Source of the DNA: Octopus vulgaris
Taxonomy: Eukaryota
Reading direction: 5' to 3'
Assembly (NCBI GenBank): GCA_951406725.2
Contig: OX597830.1
Coordinates: 62,992,001 to 63,056,000 of the forward strand
Length of the DNA stretch: 64,000 nucleotides
A program made the translations under genes and the position numbers. This document shows positions 37,797-51,005 of this stretch, one piece after another (the first letter of the stretch is position 1; each line of letters opens with the position of its first letter). The notes beneath the pieces were generated by a model. It was given only the letters and a program-made list of their open reading frames with translations. It ran no database searches and was not told where the DNA came from.

Positions 37797-40715
37797 CACT
37801 CACACACACATACACTCACACACATACACATATGCACACACACATTTTATAAAAAGATTTGCAAAGAATTCTTTATACAGTCACAATATTTGAAGCAAGA
37901 TTTCCTTAAATTAATAATTATTAATTGCATAAAACTCTTTTTAAAAAAATCCAGAATGGCATGAACCTTCCAAAAGGTTCTTATCATTTTGTTATTTTAA
38001 GTTATTTTTTGGTATAATTAATAAATTTTTGATTAAAAAAAATCTTTCTTCATATATATATATATATATAAGAGAGAGAAAGAAGTAGAGAGATGTGTGT
38101 GGATGTGTAAGGGTTTTTAAATGTCTGTCTGCATGGCTGTATATGTCCATATATTGTTAAATAGTATTTTCTGCAGGGTTGGTCCAATTTGACTCATACA
38201 CATGATGATCTTTTGGTATCTGAGTTCAAAATCTGGATTGTATTTTCAAGGTCCTTTAGGATGTTGAGGTAACAACTGTGTCAGAGGTCAGTAAATTTGA
38301 CATCATTATGAATTCAGTGAAAGCGGTGAAAGTCTTCCAACTGCTCCTCCTACAGGTAGCAGCTTCACTTCCCCAAGTCCAAATTTTTTTTTCAAAAGTC
38401 ATTAAAAGGATTCATTATTAATCATCATCATCATCATCATCAACGTTAAACGATGATGATGATGATGATGATTAATAATGAATCCTTTCCATCATTTTTG
38501 CAAGGAATTAAGAAAGAAATGTAAAAAATATGGGCTTCTTGGTAGAATGTTGTGCCTCTGTGGACATGCCTAAATTATAGATTTATTGATTAGTATCAAT
38601 ACTTTAGGATCATTGTATTGAACAATGGAGACGGCTCTTAGCAGGGTTGCAGATCATATCAGCCTGACCGAAGCTTTATCTTCCAATAGTGGAGTCACTC
38701 AGTGGTGAAACTATGCTCACTGTTGACTATGCTGGCTAAGCATGGTCACAGGACTGACCATTTGTAGGAGCACATATCTAAGATCACTGTTTACATGATG
38801 CAAGCAGTTGATCACTAGGTCATATCCCAAATGAGCAGGACTATGCTTGACTAGTAAATACAAACTCACTTGATGGAGGTTCTTGTTAACAGCAAGAAAG
38901 TGGGCCACACTGGTGGGAAACATCGAGGACCTTTTATGATGTTTGGTCCTGATGAGCTAATAGTAACTCAGTTTGCATAAAGAAACAATCTTCTTAAGCT
39001 GCATTCTGGGTCCAGGATGTTCTGGACCCAATTTTTCAGCTGAGGAGCAAGGGAGACGGGGGATGAGCCACCGTGCCTTGTGTAAACCCATTTTGGTCTC
39101 AAGATTCACGGATGCCTCTGTTTCTATCACCAGATCCGACACTCCTCAAACTGAAGGAGAGGAATTTCTCTTGTCATAAAATAAAGTATGGCAGATATAT
39201 AACAGAATCAGTAGAGCATCAATGAAAATGCCTCGTGATATTCAGTTATGTACCTTTACATTCTGAGTTCAAATCCCACCTAGGTCTGCTTTACCCTCCA
39301 TCCTCTCAAGGTCATTATAATAGTCAATGTAATCTCAACTATGCCCTTGAAGGTGGTGTTCCAGCATGACCACAGTCCAGTGATTAAAACTAGTATAAGA
39401 CTATATATATATATATATATATATACATATAGATGGATACACACACACACATGTGTGTACACATGTATGTGTGTGTACCCACTTCCTATTCACTTCCAAT
39501 GGTACAATTAACTCAAAATCGAGAATTCCTTTGGTTAAGATGGACAAAATGATAAGGTTGGTGGAGCATTGCTTTGTTATTGCCATAATAGGGCCTGGGC
39601 TAATGAACACCTCTTCCAAATCCCACTTTACCTTCCACTTATTAGCACCATTCAGAGAATCTGGCTTTTCTTTTGTTACACTTCCACTTGCCTTGTGTGT
39701 AAACAGAGGGTACAGCTCAGTGTCAATTGCCCTGACAGCAATGATGATGATGATGATGATGATGCTCTGGCACATTAGTAAACATCTTCAAGACTTGGTT
39801 ATACCAGAAAGAATATCCTGCAAGACATGAATTGCATTCTGCCAGAAAATGTCTCAGTGGTGTTTAGTCTCTTAGTCTCCATACAGATGGCAGTTAATAA
39901 TATCACTACAACCTCCACTGTTTGAAGATTGGCCAAGGATGGGAGCACATCATACAGTCATCTTAGTAGGAACCACAACCCAGCTGGCTCCATTTTCCTC
40001 AGTATCTCCAAAAATAGATTCCTCTAGTCAGCTCTCTCTCTCTCTCTCCCTCTTCTGTCAGCTTCCAAACCCCAGTGATTTAGTCATATAAGCTTCTCTC
40101 TGGCTACGATACTCTTTCTGCTCCTTTTATTCTGGTGGATACTCATTGGTTTTCTACATATTCCAGTCCCGCCCGTGTCCTCTGCTCTGAACCTATCAAC
40201 ATTTTTCATTTCCAGTTCAGGCCCTGCCACCTCCATAAGCATCTCTCACTTTCCTTTTCCTTTCTACTAGCAATATTGGCTGCTCCAAAATGAATAAGGG
40301 GGCTCCACAGAATCCCTTGAGTCTTTGCTACTTTTGTCTTATTTCCATCAGTGGTGTTAATGGCATCAGACAGTTCCACACCAAGCACAGACATCAATGT
40401 CTGTTCGTCCCTATCTTGGTTTGCCCTCCATCTTCATGCCCTCACTTGCCATTGTTTAAAGATATTGCATAGAATATGGCCAACACTCCTAAAGACCTGC
40501 AACCTGAGAAATGGAATCTACTCTCTTCCATATGAGTGTTTGTTTATGTGTGTGTGTGTGTATGCACAGGCATGTACGTATTCATGTATAGGTATGTATG
40601 TGTATATATGTGTAGATATATATCTATATACACACACACTCATATATATATATGTGTGTGTGTATTTGTATAAATATGTGTGTATGTAAGTATATGCATG
40701 TATGGGCATTTGTGT

Positions 40716-40777
<62 letters not shown>

Positions 40778-40780
40778 CTA

Positions 40781-41010
40781 CATGGTTGGCCAAAAGTCAC
40801 CCAACAGTAAATCAAAATTCCATAAATGCCATCTGTAATTCTTTATTGACTCGAATTGAAAAATGTGTCACTCAAGAAGGACTTCAGTTTGAACAATTTT
40901 CATGTTTCATATTTAGATGCCTTTATTAAATTCATTCAGTTGTTAAACATAAATAAACCTTGGAATTAAATGGTTTTGATTTACTGTCAGCTGACTTTTG
41001 GCCAACCATG
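40781..41010. mobile_element. Tc1/mariner-type MITE
   Basis: TA-catggttggccaaaagtca...tgacttttggccaaccatg-TA perfect terminal inverted repeats. Confidence 0.85.
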
Positions 41011-41188
41011 TATATATATATGTGTGTGTGTGTGTATATATATATATATTACGGTGATGTACTTGCATAGCAAGTGACCTGATCTGAGATCATGTGCTGG
41101 AACGAAAACAATTGCAGTGTGGAAGGTGTTTATAAGCCATTTAAAAACACACAAAAACCATTAGATTCACTTCAACATTTAAATTTAA

Positions 41189-41239
41189 TTTGCCAAAATA
41201 TTTTCATCGATTTGAGATCGCGACCTGTTCACTGACAAA
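41189..41239 (-). ncRNA. Minimal hammerhead-like motif with G3:C8 swapped core, in a hairpin loop
   Basis: Minus strand UUUGUCA-GUGAACA-G-GUCG(...)CGAU-GAAAAUAUUU-UGGCAAA. Confidence 0.55.
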
Positions 41240-41331
41240 ATTCTGGCAAATTAAATTTAAATGTTGAAGTGAATCTAACGGTGTTTGTGTTTCTTAAATG
41301 GCTTATAAATACCTTCCACGCTGCAACTGTT

Positions 41332-41363
<32 letters not shown>

Positions 41364-41992
41364 CGTCAGTGGATCATATATCCAAAAAGAAACCTACTCT
41401 AAAAGTTCAAGAAGTAATGTGAAGAAGCTAAATCCATGTCTAGTCATAGTGTGACCAATGGTTTCACATCCTTAAGGCACATAGCTTTACTGATGACTCA
41501 TCATTGGAGTCTGACCAGCATTTCGTGGGTGTGAAACCATTGGTCACTCTTTTACTGGACACGTATTTAACTCCATATAAATAGATACATATTATTATAT
41601 ACACACACATATATACAATTTCAGGTAATAGTCCCTGTGGTCAAACATACAAACCCACTGCTGCTATGATGCCATTTATCATCTGGATTCCTCGTTGCCA
41701 TAACCAATTATCAGACCCTTCTCTAACAAACCACACACACACAATTAACAAGCAGACAGCCTCCTCCTCCTCCACACCTTCACTTACTAACCCTGTCCCG
41801 CCTCCACCCCCAACACTCTAATCTACCCTTGGTCGAAATAATTAGACATTTATTTCAAAGTTTGTCAAAAATCTAGTTGAACTAGTTGATTGTTTGAAAT
41901 GGTGGTATTTTTGTGCATCACTAGCGCCCCCTTGGTGCACAACCGGTGTTGATGCGTAGTCGAAACAGATGAATTTCTATGGTTTATTATTA

Positions 41993-42023
<31 letters not shown>

Positions 42024-42071
42024 TACAATCATCATCATCATCATCATTGCTATTATTATTATTAATAGTAC

Positions 42072-42542
42072 TTAGGGTGGCAGTTTGGCTGAATTGTTTT
42101 GGCGTTGGATCAAATGCTGGAAGGCATTTCATCCAGCTCTTTACATTCTGAGTTCAAATCCTCACTGAGGTCGACTTTGCCTTTCATCCTTCCGGATGGG
42201 ATCAATAAAATAAAGTACCAGTCAAGTATTGAAGTGGAGTGCAGGGGTGTGATTTTTATCGAGTAAGCCTCTCTCCCCATCAAATCCATGGCCTTGTGCC
42301 TACACTAGAAACATCATTAAGAAGGCAGTGTGCTGGCAGAATCGTTAGCACGCCGGGCAAAATGCTTGGCAGTATTTCATCTCTCACTACGTTTTGAGTT
42401 CAAATTCTGCTGAGGTCAACTTTGCCTTTCATCCTTTCGGGGTCAATGAATTAAGTACTAGTTGCATGCTGGGAAGGGGGCCAGTTGATTAGACTGGCCC
42501 CCTTCCCCAAAAATTTCAGGCCTTGAGCCTATAGTAGAAAGG

Positions 42543-42583
<41 letters not shown>

Positions 42584-42800
42584 GAAGGAGGTGAGCTGGC
42601 AAAATTGCTTGGGAGTTGGGTGTAATGCTTAGTGGCATTTCGAGTTCAAATCCCACTGATGACAACTTTTCCTTTCATCCATCCGGAAGGAGTCAATAAA
42701 ATAAAGTACCAGTCAAGTACTGGGGTTGATTTAATCAACTAGCTCTCCCCCCCACTCCCGCCCTGAATTTGTGGCTCTGTGCCTACACTACAAATAATTA
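42072..42800 (+). mobile_element. Three tandem SINE family-2 copies separated by (ATT)n tails
   Basis: Three repeats of gagttcaaat...ctttgcctttcatcc...aagtac...ggccttgtgcct. Confidence 0.85.
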
Positions 42801-43547
42801 TTACTATTATTATTATTATTATTAATTTATTAATTATTATTTTCATGTCATCAACTGATTTGTCTTCACACAAAATGACTATCAAAATATTAAAAAAAAA
42901 ATGGTTTAAAAAAAAAGAAAACAGAATAAAATCAATATTATATTTTTGTCTGTTTAAATTTATTTTGTTGTTGTTTTGTTATGTTGCCTTTGTTGTTGTT
43001 GTTTAGCCCTGGGTCAGTCCTGATTGGGCTAGACCCATGATCCAAGGCTTTCCAGTTTGACTTTTTTTTTTTATGTTAGGCACAGGCTTGGCCATGTGAT
43101 TAAGAAGCTTGCTTTGCTACCACAGTGTTTTGGGTTCAGTTTCATGTTGCAGCAATCTGTGAATTTGGTAAAGAGAAACAAGGTGGAAACCCATTGTCTA
43201 ATATAATAAATACAAATGTCTGTGTGTCACACTTTTTCAACTTTACTCCTAGAGGCCGTAGCCCAACATATACCATTTTGGAATTAGGCCGACTCCACGA
43301 GTAAGTTAAAAACTTTCTGGACCGAATCCAGACCCGCAATCCTGAAATTTTGAATTCCCAAGTTTTCATTATTGCCATTGTTTTTGGCAATTTTTGTACA
43401 TGATTTTTAACGACAAATTTTTTTGTACAATAACAATTTTTATAACTTGGAAATAAATTTTGGGAATAATCAAAATTAATTGCAAAATCCAGCAATTATT
43501 TTTGGTGGTTTTTTTTTACGTGGTTTTTAGCAACAGGTAGGAACTGT

Positions 43548-43832
43548 GTGGTATGTAACTTAAACACCAGGATCGACTGTAAAAGTAGGAACACATTTTA
43601 CAGCATAAGTTACATGGAAGAGGTTTGTAAGGACAGGAACACTGCATACATTGGGGAGACATCTGTGAGTCTAGTGGAAAGACTAAACAAACACTGGGGA
43701 GAGTATAATGATGGGAAACAGTTGTCCATATGTTCTCTGCATGCCGAAACCAACATGGCAACATGCTGGGGTGAATTAACATCTATATTTTGTCCAAACA
43801 CTCAAGGGGTCTATCACTTAAACAAATATTAG
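43548..43832 (+). mobile_element. Penelope-like element GIY-YIG endonuclease fragment
   Basis: FYSIS...C...AYIGETSVSLVERLNKH fits the GIY-YIG pattern YIGETxRxLxxRxxEH typical of PLE ORFs. Confidence 0.7.
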
Positions 43833-44590
43833 AGTATGACCTCATAAATGAAACATTACCCCTACTGAATAGGAAATACATGTAGGAGGTAGAGATACCT
43901 CAATGCCACAGGTACCACCCATAAGGTGTGCATCTGTGTGGACAGGTAGGTAAGCAGGTACATGGATATATACATAGACAGATGGGTAGGTAGTTAGCTA
44001 GGTGTTTATGTTAGGTAGGTGGGGAGGGTGGTAGATAGATAAATAGGTAGGTAGGTAAATGGGTAGTATGGTCAGATATGTACATACATGCTCAAGACCA
44101 CAACCATACACACACATACATGAACTTACACTCAAACATACATAAGCATGTGCATGCACATATTCAAGCTCAGGCACACATACACACACATATGCAACAC
44201 ATATGCAATATACACACACACAAGGACACAGGAACACAACCATACACATGCACACACACACAGACATGCACAAACTCACACATAAAAAAACATTCATACA
44301 AATGCATATGAACACACACACCTACCATATTCTCCTGTCTATTCCTCTCTTCCCCCACAGGAAAGAACTACACCCTAAACACCCCTGACACCCCACACCA
44401 TAAACCCATACAGCAGGCGTAAGACAAAAACAAAATGATAAATTAGATTTAATTTTATTTTAAGGTGCTTACCAACCACATGGTTCCTGGTTCAGTCCCA
44501 CTGCATGGCACCTTGGGCAAGTGCTTTCTACTGAGCAAAGCCTTGTGAGTAGATTTGGTAGAAGGAAACTGAAAGAAGCCCATATTATAT

Positions 44591-44820
44591 ACGGTGTTCA
44601 AAAAATTTCTCTGCAGTAAGTATTTAATGGTTTTTGAGCAATTCTTGTACACGGATCCTTTACTTTATTCCACAGAAAAAAAAGTCTAGCGGTGTTAAAT
44701 CAGGTGATCTTAGTGGCCAAAGTCCCTTCGAAATAATCTGTTCTCTGAAAAGATCTTGAAGTAGTGCCATTGTAAAGTACAGGATGGAAAAAATTCACTG
44801 CAGAGACTTTTTGAACACCC

Positions 44821-44822
<2 letters not shown>
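44591..44822. mobile_element. Mariner-derived MITE
   Basis: Inverted ends ggtgttcaaaaaatttctctgcagt / actgcagagactttttgaacacc. Confidence 0.7.
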
Positions 44823-44855
<33 letters not shown>

Positions 44856-45018
44856 AGATGAGAAAGTTGGTTTGTGAAAGCACGTGGTTGAATATATAGA
44901 AAATAGTAAAAAGTGAAAAAACTACAGAAGGCTTGTTTTAAAAGGTTAAAAAATATATATTTGAGTCAATATGTCTGAAGAATGTTATAAAGTTTTTTCT
45001 TATAATGACATAGTTTAG

Positions 45019-45058
45019 AAGAAATGACCGGTTTCGCGTTCAGCTTTTCAAATTTCTT
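45019..45058 (-). ncRNA. Minimal hammerhead-like motif with U3:A8 core, in the loop of a ~130-bp hairpin
   Basis: Minus strand AAGAAAU-UUGAAAA-GC(ugaac)GC-GAAAC-CG-GUC-AUUUCUU: 7-bp stem I, GUC cleavage triplet, palindromic ACCGGU stem III. Confidence 0.65.
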
Positions 45059-45213
45059 ATTTCTTCTAAACTATGTCATTGTAAGAAAAAAATTTATAAT
45101 ATTCTTCAGACATATTGACTCAAATATATATTCTTTAAACTTTATAACAAGCCTTCTGTAGCTTTTTCACTTTTTACAATTTTCTATATATATATATATA
45201 TATGCCTTATATA

Positions 45214-45415
45214 TGAGGAGCTGCTGAAAGTTCCTAGCTTTGGGTAAAAGAAGAAACAGGAAGATTTTATTCAATATATTCCCTTCTCAGATTCACACAC
45301 TTATTGCAGCGGTCCTTCAGTTTTTCTAATCCTTGTAAAAGAACTTGGAAGGCTGGGCCTCCAACCAAGCCTTTCGTGACACCCTTAAAGCCAGGAACTT
45401 TTCAGCACTCCCTCT
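45214..45415. mobile_element. Mariner-derived MITE
   Basis: Inverted ends gaggagctgctgaaagttcctagcttt / aaagccaggaacttttcagcactccctc, TA-rich flanks. Confidence 0.65.
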
Positions 45416-45856
45416 TATATATGTTTTTGTGTCGGTGTTTGTCCCCCGCCACTGCTTGACAACTTGTGTTAGTTTGTTTGTGGTTCAGCAATAAGGCCAA
45501 TAGAATCCGTACCAAGCTTAAAAAAAGTAAGTCCTGCAGTCAATTTGTTCAACTGAAATTCTTCAAGGTGGTGCCACAATCAAATGACTGAAGCAAATAG
45601 ATCAAAGATATGTATGTCAGATACCCTGATATTACCCAGGGTGGCAAAAGCATACTTCCAAAGTTACCTATCATATGACAGCAATATATATACATATATA
45701 GAAAAAAGCGAAAGGGGCACAGTGAACTTGCTGTGAGGAGTGGAATATCCAATGTTCGGGATTCAGTCCTTCATCAGGGGGCAGAGAAAAAAAATCAGTT
45801 TCAGCCAGTTTTTCAAGCTGAGAGGATGTAAATTCTGTTTGACTTTACAGTTCTAT

Positions 45857-46096
45857 GGGCATATGGCATAGTGGTTAAGAGCGCGGGCTACTAACCCCAA
45901 GATTCCAAGTTCGATTCCAGGCAGTTACCTGAATAATAATAACAATAATAATAATAACATCGAAAAATACCTTAGGAATGAGAACCCAGGTTCAAAATTT
46001 CCCCAAGACTCCTGAAGAAGGATGGAGGGTATATCAGCCAAAACGTGTTAACAAACAAGATGAGGACAAATATCCATCAAATGTAAATAATGTAAA
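45857..46096 (+). mobile_element. tRNA-headed SINE with a hammerhead-like 3' domain
   Basis: A box tggcatagtgg (45864-45874), B box agttcgattcc (45908-45918), (AAT)n linker, CUGAAGA-stem-AAAAC motif at 46012-46044; flanking duplication tctgtttgacttt at 45834-45846 and 46097-46109. Confidence 0.7.
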
Positions 46097-46239
46097 TCTG
46101 TTTGACTTTTTCCTCTTTTTCCCTGCCCCCTAATGAAGGATTGGATATTCCACTCCTCACAGCAAGTTCACTGTACCCTTTTCACTTTTTCCTATATTTT
46201 TTCAAGTCTTGCTGACACAGAGCTACTAGATTATAAGCA

Positions 46240-46538
46240 TATATATACGGGATGAGATACTGCAACAACTTGGGTTTCAAGGGATCCTTCCAAAATGCCT
46301 GAGAGACCTGCATGGGTGTGGATGTAGGTGTCTTCAGAACAAAGCTGGATCTCCTCCTGTCAAGGGTTCCAGATGAACCCATCTCATGGCAGGAAACCCA
46401 GATGAGGGCAGCAGCATCAAACCCCCTCATTCACCAAATGCCACACATCAGAGGAGGTTTCAAATAATGAAGGTGTAGCACAGCCAAATGTGGTGCCCCA
46501 GCATGGCCGCAGCTTTGGAGCTGAAACAGGTTAAAGAG
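46240..46538 (+). mobile_element. CR1-type LINE 3' fragment
   Basis: ILPKCLRDLHG and VFRTKLDLLLSRVPDEP, then a 3' UTR ending ggtgccccagcatggccgcagctttggagctgaaacagg. Confidence 0.8.
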
Positions 46539-47328
46539 TATGTGTGTGTGTGTGTGTATAAGTGGACAAGCGAAAGAAAGAGGCACTCTGCACGTCTAGT
46601 AGGAGTCACGTATATTATTATCTAAAACAGTCTGATTCACCTCCGTGCAACTTCAAGTTTTATGTGTGTGTGTGTATATTCTACAAAACTTACATAGCAC
46701 ATCAGAAATCAGATGGCAAGATTACATAACCTGTAGAGAGAGTAAGATTGAAATACTTAGTGTAACATCAACTGAAGACTCTATATATATAGGAAGGGTA
46801 TCCAACTGTAAAAATCCTGCCAAAACAGTCACAGAAGTTTGGTACAGGCTTTGGTGGTACCGTCCCACCCATGCGAGCACGGAAGACGGATGCTAAGCGA
46901 TGATGATGATGATTATCATTATTATTACTATATATATAAATTGTGGGACGGTACCACAAGAGCTGGCCAGGCCAAAGCCTGTACCAAACTTCTGTGATTG
47001 TTTTGGCAGGATTTTTACAGTTGGATACTCTTCCTTACACCAACCACTCAGCAGGGTGGACAAAGTGCTTTTTACATGGCACAAGCACAGGTGAGTTGAG
47101 AGTGCTAATAATAATAATAATAATAATAATCCATGGATGGAATTCATAGATATTCTAATGCATTGTTATGCATGTAGCAATGCATTAGATATTATTATTA
47201 TTATTATCCTACATTATATCAGCACAGCTCGGTACAACCCCAAAAACTGTTATTGCCAGTTGGTAACATTAAGTTGTAGCTGACATAACAAATAGGAGCT
47301 TCTATATAGATATTCAAAAATATTTCCT

Positions 47329-48915
47329 TTAACCCTTTTGTTACTGTATTTATTTTGAGATGCTCTGTGATTCTTTCAGTTACTTTAAATATAACAAAGA
47401 ATTTAGTAAATTAACTTAGTTATCATTAAGCTAGTGATAGGAACATAAATTGTGACTAAGGTTTAGTGGAAGATTTTAATTCAAAACTTATGAAAACAAG
47501 ACATTTGTACTGCAGAGCCAGAGCCGGTTTCAGCCAGATTGGTAACAAAAGGGTTAAATTAATCATTTGTTAACCCTTTTGTTACCATATTTCTGTTGAG
47601 ATGCTCTGTGTTTCTTTCAATTACTTTAAATATAACAAAAAATTTAGTAAAATAACTTAGTTATCATTCAGCTAGTGTTAGGAACATAAATTGTGACTAA
47701 GGTTTAGTGGAAGATTTTAATTCAAAACTTATGAAAACAAGACATTTGTACTGCAGAGCCAGAGCCGGTTTCAGCCAGATTGGTAACAAAAGGGTTAAAT
47801 TAATCATTTGTTAACCCTTTTGTTACCATATTTCTGTTGAGATGCTCTGTGTTTCTTTCAATTACTTTAAATATAACAAAAAATTTAGTAAAATAACTTA
47901 GTTATCATTCAGCTAGTGTTAGGAACATAAATTGTGACTAAGGTTTAGTGGAAGATTTTAATTCAAAACTTATGAAAACAAGACATTTGTACTGCAGAGC
48001 CAGAGCCGGTTTCAGCCAGATTGGTAACAAAAGGGTTAAATTAATCATTTGTTAACCCTTTTGTTACCATATTTCTGTTGAGATGCTCTGTGTTTCTTTC
48101 AATTACTTTAAATATAACAAAAAATTTAGTAAAATAACTTAGTTATCATTCAGCTAGTGTTAGGAACATAAATTGTGACTAAGGTTTAGTGGAAGATTTT
48201 AATTCAAAACTTATGAAAACAAGACATTTGTACTGCAGAGCCAGAGCCGGTTTCAGCAGATTGGTAACAAAAGGGTTAAATTAATCATTTGTTAACCCTT
48301 TTGTTACCATATTTCTGTTGAGATGCTCTGTGTTTCTTTCAATTACTTTAAATATAACAAAAAATTTAGTAAAATAACTTAGTTATCATTCAGCTAGTGT
48401 TAGGAACATAAATTGTGACTAAGGTTTAGTGGAAGATTTTAATTCAAAACTTATGAAAACAAGACATTTGTACTGCAGAGCCAGAGCCGGTTTCAGCCAG
48501 ATTGGTAACAAAAGGGTTAAATTAATCATTTGTTAACCCTTTTGTTACCATATTTCTGTTGAGATGCTCTGTGTTTCTTTCAATTACTTTAAATATAACA
48601 AAAAATTTAGTAAAATAACTTAGTTATCATTCAGCTAGTGTTAGGAACATAAATTGTGACTAAGGTTTAGTGGAAGATTTTAATTCAAAACTTATGAAAA
48701 CAAGACATTTGTACTGCAGAGCCAGAGCCGGTTTCAGCCAGATTGGTAACAAAAGGGTTAAATTAATCATTTGTTAACCCTTTTGTTACCATATTTCTGT
48801 TGAGATGCTCTGTGTTTCTTTCAATTACTTTAAATATAACAAAAAATTTAGTAAAATAACTTAGTTATCATTCAGCTAGTGTTAGGAACATAAATTGTGA
48901 CTAAGGTTTTGGTGG
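47329..48915. repeat. Tandem array of a 241-bp unit (piggyBac-like MITE plus 12-bp spacer), about 6.6 copies
   Basis: TTAACCCTTTTGTTAC starts at 47329, 47570, 47811, 48052, 48292, 48533 and 48774; each full unit ends GTAACAAAAGGGTTAA followed by spacer attaatcatttg. Confidence 0.97.
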
Positions 48916-49204
48916 TGCCACGTAAAAAGCATCCAATCTACACTGTAAAGTGGTTGGCATTTGGAAGGGCCTCCAGCTGTAAAAATCTTGCCAAAACTGT
49001 CCTTGCCTGTACAGGTGCCATGTAAAAAGCACCCAGCACACCCTGTAAATTGGTTGATATTAGGAAGGGCATCCTGCCATAAAAACCTTGCCAAAACAAG
49101 CAGAGTAGCATAGGGTAGTTTTTCTACCTGGCCAGTGCCTGTGACCCGTCCTACCCATGCATGCATGGAAGATGGACGTTAAATGATGATGATGATGATT
49201 GTAT

Positions 49205-49621
49205 ATTCTTTTATTCTTTTACTTGTTTCAAGTCATTTGACTGCAGCCAGGCTAGAGCTCTGCCTTTAGTCAAACAAATCGACCCCAGGACTTATTCTTT
49301 GTAAGCCTAATACTTATTCTATCGGTCTGTTTTGCCGAACCGCTAACTTATTAGGACGTAAACACACCAGCATCGGTTGTCAAGTGATGGTGGGGAGACA
49401 AACAGAGACACACAAATACACACATACATATAAATATATAAGGCAGATAAAATCCTAAGTAAATCTACCCCCACCCATACCTAATATTCAATTGCAATAT
49501 TGCCATGCAATAGTAAGCACTTGGCTATAAATACTTAGGTACACATCCAGTAGTATATTGGATATTTAATATCCTTTAAATGGTTGCTTAACCTCTAACT
49601 CATACAGACAGATATATGTAC

Positions 49622-49674
<53 letters not shown>

Positions 49675-49860
49675 CATATATATATACATATATATATATA
49701 CACATGACAGGCTTCTTTCAGTTTCCGTCTACGAAATCCACTCACAAGGCTTAGGTCGTCCTGAGGCTACAGTAGAAAACACTTGCCCAAGGTGACATGC
49801 AGTGGAACTGAACCTGGAACCATGTGGTTGGGAAGCAAGCTTCTTACTACACAGCCTCTC
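49205..49860 (-). mobile_element. tRNA-derived SINE family 1, antisense, interrupted in its microsatellite
   Basis: Reverse complement of the tail (49205-49420) and head (49705-49860) with ~280 bp of other sequence between. Confidence 0.75.
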
Positions 49861-51005
49861 CTGCACACACACACACACACATACATATATATATTTGTTT
49901 ATTTATCTATATTGTGTACTTCCAAGCAAGCTAATATTTTTCTATGACTGGACATATTTTCATGAAAGACTGGAAGCAAACAACACTGCTGGTATGACAG
50001 TGACACTTGTCTACAGCCATCATTTAATGTCAAGACAACAGGACGAACACACACATGCACAAATATGTATGTACATACAATAGGCTTCTTTCAGTTTCCA
50101 TCTACTATAGACCCTGGCTGGCTTGGGGCTAGAGCAGAAGACACTTGCCCAAAGTGTGGTACAGTGAGTTTGAACCTGAACTCATGTAATTGAGAAGCAA
50201 ACTTCTTCACCACACAGCCATTCTTGTACCTGGTTACGATCAACAAGATTATGATCAAATTTAGCTTACTTACTTATGACAGCCCATCAAAGGTGGTGAC
50301 AGTATTCAGCCGAGACATTCGCCCTCCTCCACCGCCAGCACATTCTTTTGTCATGGGGCCACATGTGGTTGGCAAGACTGATACAAGATAGGCAGATCCT
50401 GTGGTACTAAGGGCACTGAAAGTGACTCCAGAACAACATCTGTAGAGGGTTGATGATAATGTCTTCTCGCCTCTTCACACAGTCTCCTGTGTTCAGCTCT
50501 GACATCATACACAGACCTCCATGCTTTCCAATTAACAGCCAGGGGCTCCAAACGATAATATTACAGTGATTAAAAACTGAAGGTGTAACAATATTTTTTA
50601 TAAATGTTATACAGGTATGTATGGTTTAAGGGGAAATACCTCTTAAGGAGATTAAAAAAGATTTATTTATCTATCCACTCACTTGTGCAGATAGAGTTGA
50701 TTCATAGACCTTTCAGCATAGCTAACCATCAATGGCCAATCAGCCTTACTGATTGATAGAGGGTGGGTGGGGTGGAGGGCCCAGAGTATATTGAGCCCAG
50801 TATTTGATTTTGCAAATGGAAAAAGGACACATACAATCAATTTGATGGGATTTCAACTCAGACAATTGAAGGATGTAAATAAATAATGCAAAGAATTCTT
50901 TGATATTGCCATGTTTCTGTCAAACCACTGACTTTATATACATATACATATATATTTGCTATATATATATATATCTTCCCTTCTCGGGATCTTTCCTTCT
51001 CCTAT

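What the first reader, a model, noticed from the sequence alone, without database searches (positions are those of the whole stretch)
44892..45190. Long fold-back hairpin whose loop is a hammerhead ribozyme with a compensatory U3:A8 core
Seen: ~130-bp inverted arms (44892-45025 and 45059-45190) enclose, on the minus strand, AAGAAAU-UUGAAAA-GC(ugaac)GC-GAAAC-CG-GUC-AUUUCUU. Known: the hammerhead core is CUGANGA...GAAA...NUH, positions 3 and 8 form a Watson-Crick pair in the active fold, and minimal type-I hammerheads with palindromic stem III occur in Penelope-like retroelements. Here C3 and G8 have both changed, to U and A, which keeps the pair. Inference: a small non-coding 'hairpin plus ribozyme' element whose long arms extend stem I, giving a self-opening dsRNA that standard CUGANGA searches would miss.
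Basis: partly seen in the sequence, partly recalled or inferred. Interest (0 to 1): 0.8.

Follow-up and report, generated by a model that had tools for sequence, protein, structure and literature searches.

The report
Penelope retrotransposon stub with U3:A8 hammerhead
The hairpin is the leftover of a jumping gene (a Penelope-like retrotransposon) that landed as two back-to-back partial copies, and its 'compensated' hammerhead motif is that family's normal, already described variant; a modest excess of copies that begin at the predicted cut site hints that the ribozyme may cut some transcripts in the living animal.

Summary
Observation confirmed; interpretation only partly supported. The hairpin (134 aligned columns) and the U3:A8 minimal hammerhead motif are real, but they are not a stand-alone RNA element. 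They are the 3' end of a Penelope-like retrotransposon (reverse transcriptase, cysteine linker, GIY-YIG nuclease; at least 620 ends in this genome): one 5'-truncated copy with a 36-bp tail plus an inverted truncated copy, set in (TA)n. Both the inverted arrangement and the U3-A8 core are in print for this class. The junction is unique in the genome, and the arm is predicted to displace stem I, not extend it. Two by-products: only 114 of 7,212 minimal-hammerhead pattern hits in this genome have the canonical C3:G8 core; and 15 of 44 family junctions near the ribozyme fall at the predicted cut (about 7-8 expected with microhomology, P 0.002-0.011), a possible genomic record of cleavage in vivo. 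That signal is weak in a second family, and 81 of 84 copies read through the cut. The scan has noted Penelope hammerheads on other DNA before (358 notes); none came up for this combination.

The parts
44831..44854 (.). (TA)n microsatellite, left part of the insertion target
   Evidence: sequence; 98 of 100 sampled family ends abut a TA/TC run
44856..44891 (-). 36-bp one-sided 'tail' extension of the element's 3' end
   Evidence: matches the tail of full-length copy L032; present on one arm only in 13 of 14 sampled inverted pairs; tail described in PMC8557442 and PMC11167929
44892..45059 (-). 5'-truncated copy of the pseudo-LTR, from 34 nt upstream of the predicted cut to the first 3' end (left arm plus loop)
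   Evidence: 2 mismatches in 204 bases (tail included) to the 3' pseudo-LTR of L032
45019..45058 (-). minimal type-I hammerhead motif: 7-bp stem I, core with U3 (45051) and A8 (45046), 2-bp stem II, palindromic stem III, predicted cut 45026/45025
   Evidence: sequence; same core in 74 of 76 sampled family copies; activity not tested
45059..45191 (+). inverted 5'-truncated copy without tail, beginning at the predicted cut site (first base shared with the other copy; right arm)
   Evidence: 6 mismatches and 1 internal gap in about 134 bases to L032 from the cut onward; differs from the left arm at 8 sites, 3 of them with an allele common in the family
45185..45203 (.). (TA)n microsatellite, right part of the insertion target
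   Evidence: sequence

Best explanation
The hairpin is a dead-on-arrival insertion of a Penelope-like retrotransposon, made of two 5'-truncated copies of the element's terminal repeat joined back to back inside a TA microsatellite, and the U3:A8 hammerhead motif is the one that the whole family carries in that repeat. Likely mechanism: the element's nuclease nicks both strands of a (TA)n target, each nick primes reverse transcription at one of two TA-rich start points 134 and about 170 nt downstream of the ribozyme cut, and the two short cDNAs are joined at their growing ends. One cDNA stopped at the start of stem I; the other stopped at the predicted cut, as expected if its template had been cleaved. 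In source elements the ribozyme would act as a dimer through its palindromic stem III; in this copy it is predicted to be mis-paired and silent. Shown: family identity, anatomy, tail, target, unique junction, core covariation. Inferred: two-primer mechanism, cleavage, dimer.
For: Family: 85 matches from 1,582 candidates; 620 exact matches to a 23-mer of the arm, control 0. Upstream of the motif, copies carry an ORF with RT motifs, a C-x4-C-x2-C linker and a GIY-YIG-like C-terminus; 30 of 69 longer homologues carry Pfam GIY-YIG PF01541. L032 shows the textbook layout: inverted truncated copy, pseudo-LTR, ~4-kb unit, pseudo-LTR, tail, (TA)n. 42 of 100 sampled ends have an opposite-strand copy within 1.15 kb upstream; tail on one arm only in 13 of 14 pairs. 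PMC8557442 (passages) describes inverted 5'-truncated copies, the 30-40 bp tail and microsatellite targets; PMC11167929 (passages) shows both-strand nicking and two internal RT start sites that bound the tail. Arm pairs differ at family-polymorphic sites in 32 of 553 comparisons (5.8%) against 93 of 5,431 (1.7%) at other sites, and the window's arms differ at 3 common alleles, as expected if some pairs come from two templates.
Against: Pfam on the family's own proteins gave only a weak RT hit (E 1e-4, below cut-off) and no GIY-YIG hit; nuclease identity rests on motifs and homologues. Arm pairs are far more alike than random pairs (5.8% against 21.2%), so most pairs could come from one cDNA folding back, and the polymorphic sites may simply be mutable. 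The window's junction lies on the 7-nt inverted repeat of stem I, where fold-back is also favoured. 81 of 84 unbiased copies read through the cut site. No cleavage was measured; a 2-bp stem II is short next to the 7-8 bp reported for schistosome minimal motifs (PMC4209133).
Confidence: 0.92

Rival explanations
1. Same element, other route: one cDNA ran through the ribozyme, folded back on the 7-nt inverted repeat of stem I, slipped by 7 nt and copied itself. No RNA cleavage is involved.
For: The junction sits on stem I; 12 of 75 at-risk copies end 27-35 nt upstream of the cut, the highest rate of any bin of 9 nt or more; many pairs end at nearly the same place on both arms; most arm pairs share a haplotype.
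Against: The 7-nt strand is duplicated, not merged, at the junction; the window's arms differ at 3 sites with common family alleles; the tail is on one arm only in 13 of 14 pairs, though a fold-back copy could also stop at the inner TA run.
Confidence: 0.3
2. The excess of junctions at the cut site is an artefact: ends are joined where the element is AT-rich and offers microhomology with (TA)n or with the inverted arm, and the ribozyme is nearly inactive or dispensable.
For: Six of the 15 junctions at the cut follow a TA run, five with 2 nt of microhomology; 7 more pile up at the TA at +8 and others at +13. With a stronger microhomology weight (beta 1.5) the expected count is 15.3 and the excess vanishes. 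A large subfamily lacks A1.1 and some copies have U3:G8, yet they spread. PMC11167929: ribozyme mutants insert normally in vitro and no RNA reads began at the cut in that species.
Against: With weights fitted to the observed microhomology, 7.1-8.3 are expected against 15 seen (P 0.002-0.011). In a second family whose cut is followed by C, 4 of 21 junctions lie at 0/+1 (P 0.035; 2 of 21 at 0 alone, P about 0.13 by hand). Covariation at 3:8 and in stems I and II across families argues for selection on the fold.
Confidence: 0.5
3. One reading: an independent small non-coding element in which long arms stabilise stem I and the ribozyme opens the double-stranded RNA.
For: The hairpin is very stable; hairpin-shaped copies are common in the family; a hammerhead register with a 7-nt bulge can be drawn.
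Against: Junction unique: 1 exact match, and the one 1-mismatch hit is unrelated DNA; breakpoints differ from copy to copy; arm register favoured by 5.5-7.4 kcal/mol; stem III cannot close in a monomer and the hairpin holds one motif only.
Confidence: 0.03

Closest known systems
Canonical C-terminal-endonuclease Penelope-like elements with the cysteine linker (Neptune and Nematis clades; PMC8557442)
   Same: RT followed by a C-x2-5-C-x2-C linker and a GIY-YIG domain with CCHH; pseudo-LTRs; frequent 5' truncation; inverted truncated copy at the 5' end; one-sided 30-40 bp tail; microsatellite targets; hammerhead in the pseudo-LTR.
   Different: Nothing in kind. The clade (Neptune or Nematis) was not resolved, for want of named reference sequences; this family was not looked up in a repeat database.
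Minimal hammerheads (min-HHR) of metazoan Penelope-like elements, including the U3-A8 variant of Schistosoma mansoni (~1,300 hits; PMC4209133)
   Same: Type I, palindromic minimal stem III, G10.1-C11.1, U3-A8 covariation, mostly single motifs in truncated copies, pairs on opposite strands 100-700 bp apart.
   Different: Stem II is only 2 bp and there is no extra base between 9 and 10.1; U3:A8 is the dominant core here (85 of the first 100 hits; C3:G8 114 of 7,212), whereas it was the smaller class in the schistosome; one subfamily lacks A1.1.
Natural U3-A8 hammerhead core variants (PMC3088659)
   Same: Same compensatory pair, reported there as natural and as active in vitro.
   Different: Those were not tied to this element; activity of this motif is untested.
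Non-LTR retrozymes of animals (PMC7229834; bioRxiv 10.64898/2026.07.22.740005)
   Same: Small non-coding, hammerhead-bearing derivatives of Penelope terminal repeats.
   Different: Retrozymes are head-to-tail tandem units; this is a single inverted pair. True retrozyme-like ~360-bp tandem arrays exist elsewhere in this genome.

Membership tests
Penelope-like element (EN+, C-terminal) | RT ORF with PLE motifs upstream of the terminal repeat | tested here: met
   801-aa frame in L031 and frames in L032 with DKG and RT motifs A, B, C; RVT_1 E 1e-4, below Pfam's cut-off. The window copy itself holds no ORF.
Penelope-like element (EN+, C-terminal) | C-terminal GIY-YIG endonuclease with CCHH motif | tested here: met
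   Motif visible in translations; no direct Pfam hit; 30 of 69 longer homologues carry PF01541.
Penelope-like element (EN+, C-terminal) | Pseudo-LTRs, inverted 5'-truncated copy and one-sided tail | tested here: met
   L032 layout; 42 of 100 ends with inverted partner, tail on one arm in 13 of 14 pairs.
Neptune/Nematis clades | C-x2-5-C-x2-C linker between RT and EN | tested here: met
   C-x4-C-x2-C seen in L010, L020, L029; definition from PMC8557442.
Neptune clade specifically | RT phylogeny groups with Neptune references | not tested
   No named reference sequences were at hand; no tree was built.
Minimal type-I hammerhead ribozyme | Core with a 3:8 pair, G5, A6, A9, G12-A13-A14, A15.1-U16.1, H17 | tested here: met
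   All present; core unchanged in 74 of 76 sampled copies.
Minimal type-I hammerhead ribozyme | 3:8 covariation among homologues | tested here: met
   L324, L327 (C3:G8) against L325, L326 (U3:A8), 84-90% identical units; first 100 genome hits: 85 U:A, 8 C:G, 5 U:G, 2 C:A (counted by eye). These are other families of the genome; within this family the pair is fixed apart from a U3:G8 sister group.
Minimal type-I hammerhead ribozyme | Stems I, II and III can form around the core | tested here: inconclusive
   Native context: U2.1-A1.1 probability 0.36; dimer fold pairs both stems I and the palindromic stem III (-14.3 kcal/mol). Window hairpin: probability 0.0. Stem II is 2 bp.
Minimal type-I hammerhead ribozyme | Self-cleavage after H17 | not testable with these tools
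   Needs an assay; only the indirect junction count bears on it.
Independent fold-back or MITE-like element | Many copies with the same ends and the same centre | tested here: not met
   One exact junction in the genome; centres vary among hairpin copies.
Non-LTR retrozyme | Head-to-tail tandem units, each with a hammerhead | tested here: not met
   One motif, inverted arrangement.

The most novel reading that the evidence does not exclude
Truncated Penelope copies keep a genomic record of hammerhead cleavage in the germ line: their 5' junctions pile up at the ribozyme cut because reverse transcriptase runs off cleaved RNA, and this hairpin joins one cDNA from a cut template to one from an uncut template. 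Counting junctions across families would then measure, from genomes alone, which minimal hammerheads (here a U3:A8 core with a 2-bp stem II, in a genome where about 98% of such motifs lack the canonical core) really cut in vivo.
Probability: 0.35. Interest if true: 0.6.

Novelty: new member of a known kind. Interest (0 to 1): 0.3.

Why it matters
The locus is ordinary retrotransposon debris. Two side results have some use. First, canonical-core searches would miss about 98% of the minimal-hammerhead pattern hits in this genome, so ribozyme counts for such animals may be far too low. Second, whether Penelope hammerheads cut in vivo is called unclear in PMC8557442, and PMC11167929 found no RNA reads at the cut; the junction count tried here is a cheap, genome-only test of that question and gave a suggestive, unsettled signal.

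Tried and rejected
Rfam scan of 40000-50000: only microsatellite-driven microRNA noise and no hammerhead family; not taken as evidence against so small a motif. Protein search of the own genome for more distant families returned only near-identical copies (150 scored of 18,301 candidates). First breakpoint script mis-called 20-nt repeat indels as breaks; redone with long gaps, where about 6 calls at -60 to -64 remain variant artefacts. One search was meant as a downstream control but was swamped by a third subfamily (first 100 of 283 seen); read by eye only. The one other hit to the junction pattern is unrelated DNA. Expression: no RNA holder listed on record, only guesses; four runs laid were contigs, none listed spanned the junction, and contigs cannot show ends; no conclusion drawn. 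A microRNA or siRNA role for the hairpin was considered and left open: nothing tested. The paper on dimer cleavage of Penelope hammerhead variants (PMC5785218) was seen only as a title in a reference list. Look-ups of earlier scan notes: none for this genome or for the full word set.

Full report
Observation. The window is bases 62,992,001-63,056,000 of contig C17 of a 2.8-Gb genome. It is an AT-rich, microsatellite-rich animal genome; named homologues of the element's protein are from bivalve molluscs, and the surrounding repeats look to me like those of octopus (recalled, not tested). The arms 44892-45025 and 45059-45191 align over 134 columns with 7 mismatches and one gap and fold at z -28.8. 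Rfam reports no hammerhead there. The arm ends in a second copy of the 7-nt 5' strand of stem I, directly before the native one.

What it belongs to. A search of the own genome with the hairpin centre gave 85 matches from 1,582 candidates, 40 scored; a 23-mer of the arm has 620 exact matches, reversed control 0. In most of the 30 loci fetched, the motif is preceded by a shared unrelated sequence, not by an arm, and that sequence is the end of an ORF with RT, a C-x4-C-x2-C linker and a GIY-YIG-like domain. Pfam gave only RVT_1 at E 1e-4 on these proteins; 30 of 69 longer homologues carry GIY-YIG PF01541 (counted by eye). Locus L032 is a full-length copy, its ORF broken into several frames: inverted truncated copy, pseudo-LTR, a unit of about 4 kb, pseudo-LTR, tail, (TA)n. 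The window's left copy matches its 3' pseudo-LTR with 2 mismatches in 204 bases, tail included; the right, inverted copy starts at the predicted cut and has no tail. In an unbiased sample (the first 100 of the 620 matches in genome order), 42 have an opposite-strand copy within 1.15 kb upstream, 98 abut a TA or TC run, and 13 of 14 pairs have the tail on one arm only. All this is the anatomy given for Penelope-like elements in PMC8557442 (passages).

The ribozyme. The U3:A8 core is unchanged in 74 of 76 sampled copies that hold it, so it is the family's state and not decay. A relaxed pattern for minimal hammerheads has 7,212 hits against 27 for the control; 114 have C3:G8. The first 100 hits are 85 U:A, 8 C:G, 5 U:G and 2 C:A (by eye; copies are not independent events). 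Homologous ~360-bp units at 84-90% identity carry either C3:G8 (L324, L327) or U3:A8 (L325, L326), a true double change; stems I and II differ between families while staying paired. U3-A8 is known: PMC3088659 (passages) reports it in nature and as active, and PMC4209133 (parts 1 and 2 of 4) reports about 1,300 U3-A8 motifs from schistosome Penelope elements, dimer dependence and low activity. Against simple function: a large subfamily lacks A1.1 (most of the first 100 of 268 rows) and a sister group has U3:G8.

Is the hairpin a unit? No. The junction has one exact match in the genome; the single one-mismatch hit is unrelated DNA. Other hairpin-shaped copies break elsewhere. In the window RNA the arm register is 5.5-7.4 kcal/mol more stable than the hammerhead register, and U2.1-A1.1 pairs with probability 0.0, against 0.36 in the native context; a two-strand fold of the native motif pairs both stems I and the palindromic stem III. 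The arm is thus predicted to silence the motif.

How it likely arose. PMC11167929 (passages) shows that a Penelope protein nicks both strands of AT-rich DNA and starts reverse transcription at two internal sites that bound the tail. Two cDNAs, one from each site, joined at their growing ends, give an inverted pair with a one-sided tail. In 58 pairs (from 237 copies, partly chosen by junction patterns), arms differ at family-polymorphic sites in 32 of 553 comparisons, at other sites in 93 of 5,431, and random pairs in 21.2%; the window's arms differ at 8 sites, 3 with a common allele, one of them in a T-run that is hard to align. So some pairs likely had two templates, while most are compatible with one source or with fold-back. 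This step is inferred.

Junctions at the cut. Because the inverted arm begins at the predicted cut, I tested whether family junctions gather there. A pattern that rejects the native core listed all 63 matches (the window copy is not among them). I dropped 11 as point changes, small indels or a short duplication, merged one palindrome seen on both strands, and set aside 7 at the edge (+8). Of 44 events from -22 to +7, 15 lie at 0 or +1 (+1 is the cut in the subfamily without A1.1); uniform P 8e-8. Three of the 15 are doubtful (an internal deletion, a partial duplication, a mismatched start). With microhomology weights fitted to the data 7.1-8.3 are expected, P 0.002-0.011; with a stronger weight the excess disappears. 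The TA sites at +8 (7 events) and +13 (by eye) also collect junctions. In a second family (48-56% protein identity; cut followed by C) I saw the first 100 of 252 rows, fetched 30 automatically and 20 chosen by eye, and after hand correction (4 events restored, 2 merged) 4 of 21 lie at 0/+1 (P 0.035), 2 of 21 at 0 alone (P about 0.13, by hand). In the unbiased sample 3 of 84 at-risk copies end at 0/+1, 81 read through, and 12 of 75 end at -35 to -27. Reading: cleavage, if real, affects a small share of templates; the signal is suggestive only.

Literature. Searches for such a junction analysis or for an octopus report turned up none in the held library, which lacks most subscription journals. 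I did not read the supplements of PMC4209133, which list motifs from many invertebrates and may include this group, and I saw PMC5785218 only as a title. PMC7229834 (passages), PMC6765202 (passages) and bioRxiv 10.64898/2026.07.22.740005 (listing and two passages) cover retrozymes and the open question of function. Earlier scan notes: 358 hold 'hammerhead' and 'Penelope' on other genomes, none the full word set or this genome; none changed my reading.

Verdict. A new member of a known kind: a truncated, inverted Penelope-like insertion with the family's U3:A8 minimal hammerhead. Interest 0.3, carried by the dominance of the non-canonical core in this genome and by the testable junction signal.

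Noticed in passing
window 45676-46217: A second, older inverted-arm structure (arms about 45676-45791 and 46108-46217) with a decayed canonical-core hammerhead-like motif at 46012 on the + strand; likely another Penelope-type insertion. No ORF link tested.
   Followed up: partly
window 47294-49038: Tandem array of about seven 241-bp units, several 100% identical; unit ends look like short inverted repeats next to TTAA, which I recall as piggyBac-like.
   Followed up: no
L152-L181: A large subfamily lacks A1.1, leaving a 6-bp stem I with an extra U before U3; insertions at this place impaired cleavage in PMC3088659. A third subfamily has one extra base just after stem I.
   Followed up: partly
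L258-L261, L324, L327: Retrozyme-like tandem arrays of about 360 bp, one hammerhead per unit, in both U3:A8 and C3:G8 versions and distantly related to each other.
   Followed up: partly
L032 and unbiased sample: Many 5' ends, including the upstream pseudo-LTR of the full-length copy, fall 27-35 nt upstream of the cut, at the 5' strand of stem I: a transcription start or a fold-back site.
   Followed up: partly
L193, L200, L225: Three insertions are near-perfect palindromes centred within about 1 nt of the predicted cut.
   Followed up: partly
L328 (G000:C13): A single copy of the second family has both C3 and G8; could be two chance changes among thousands of copies.
   Followed up: no
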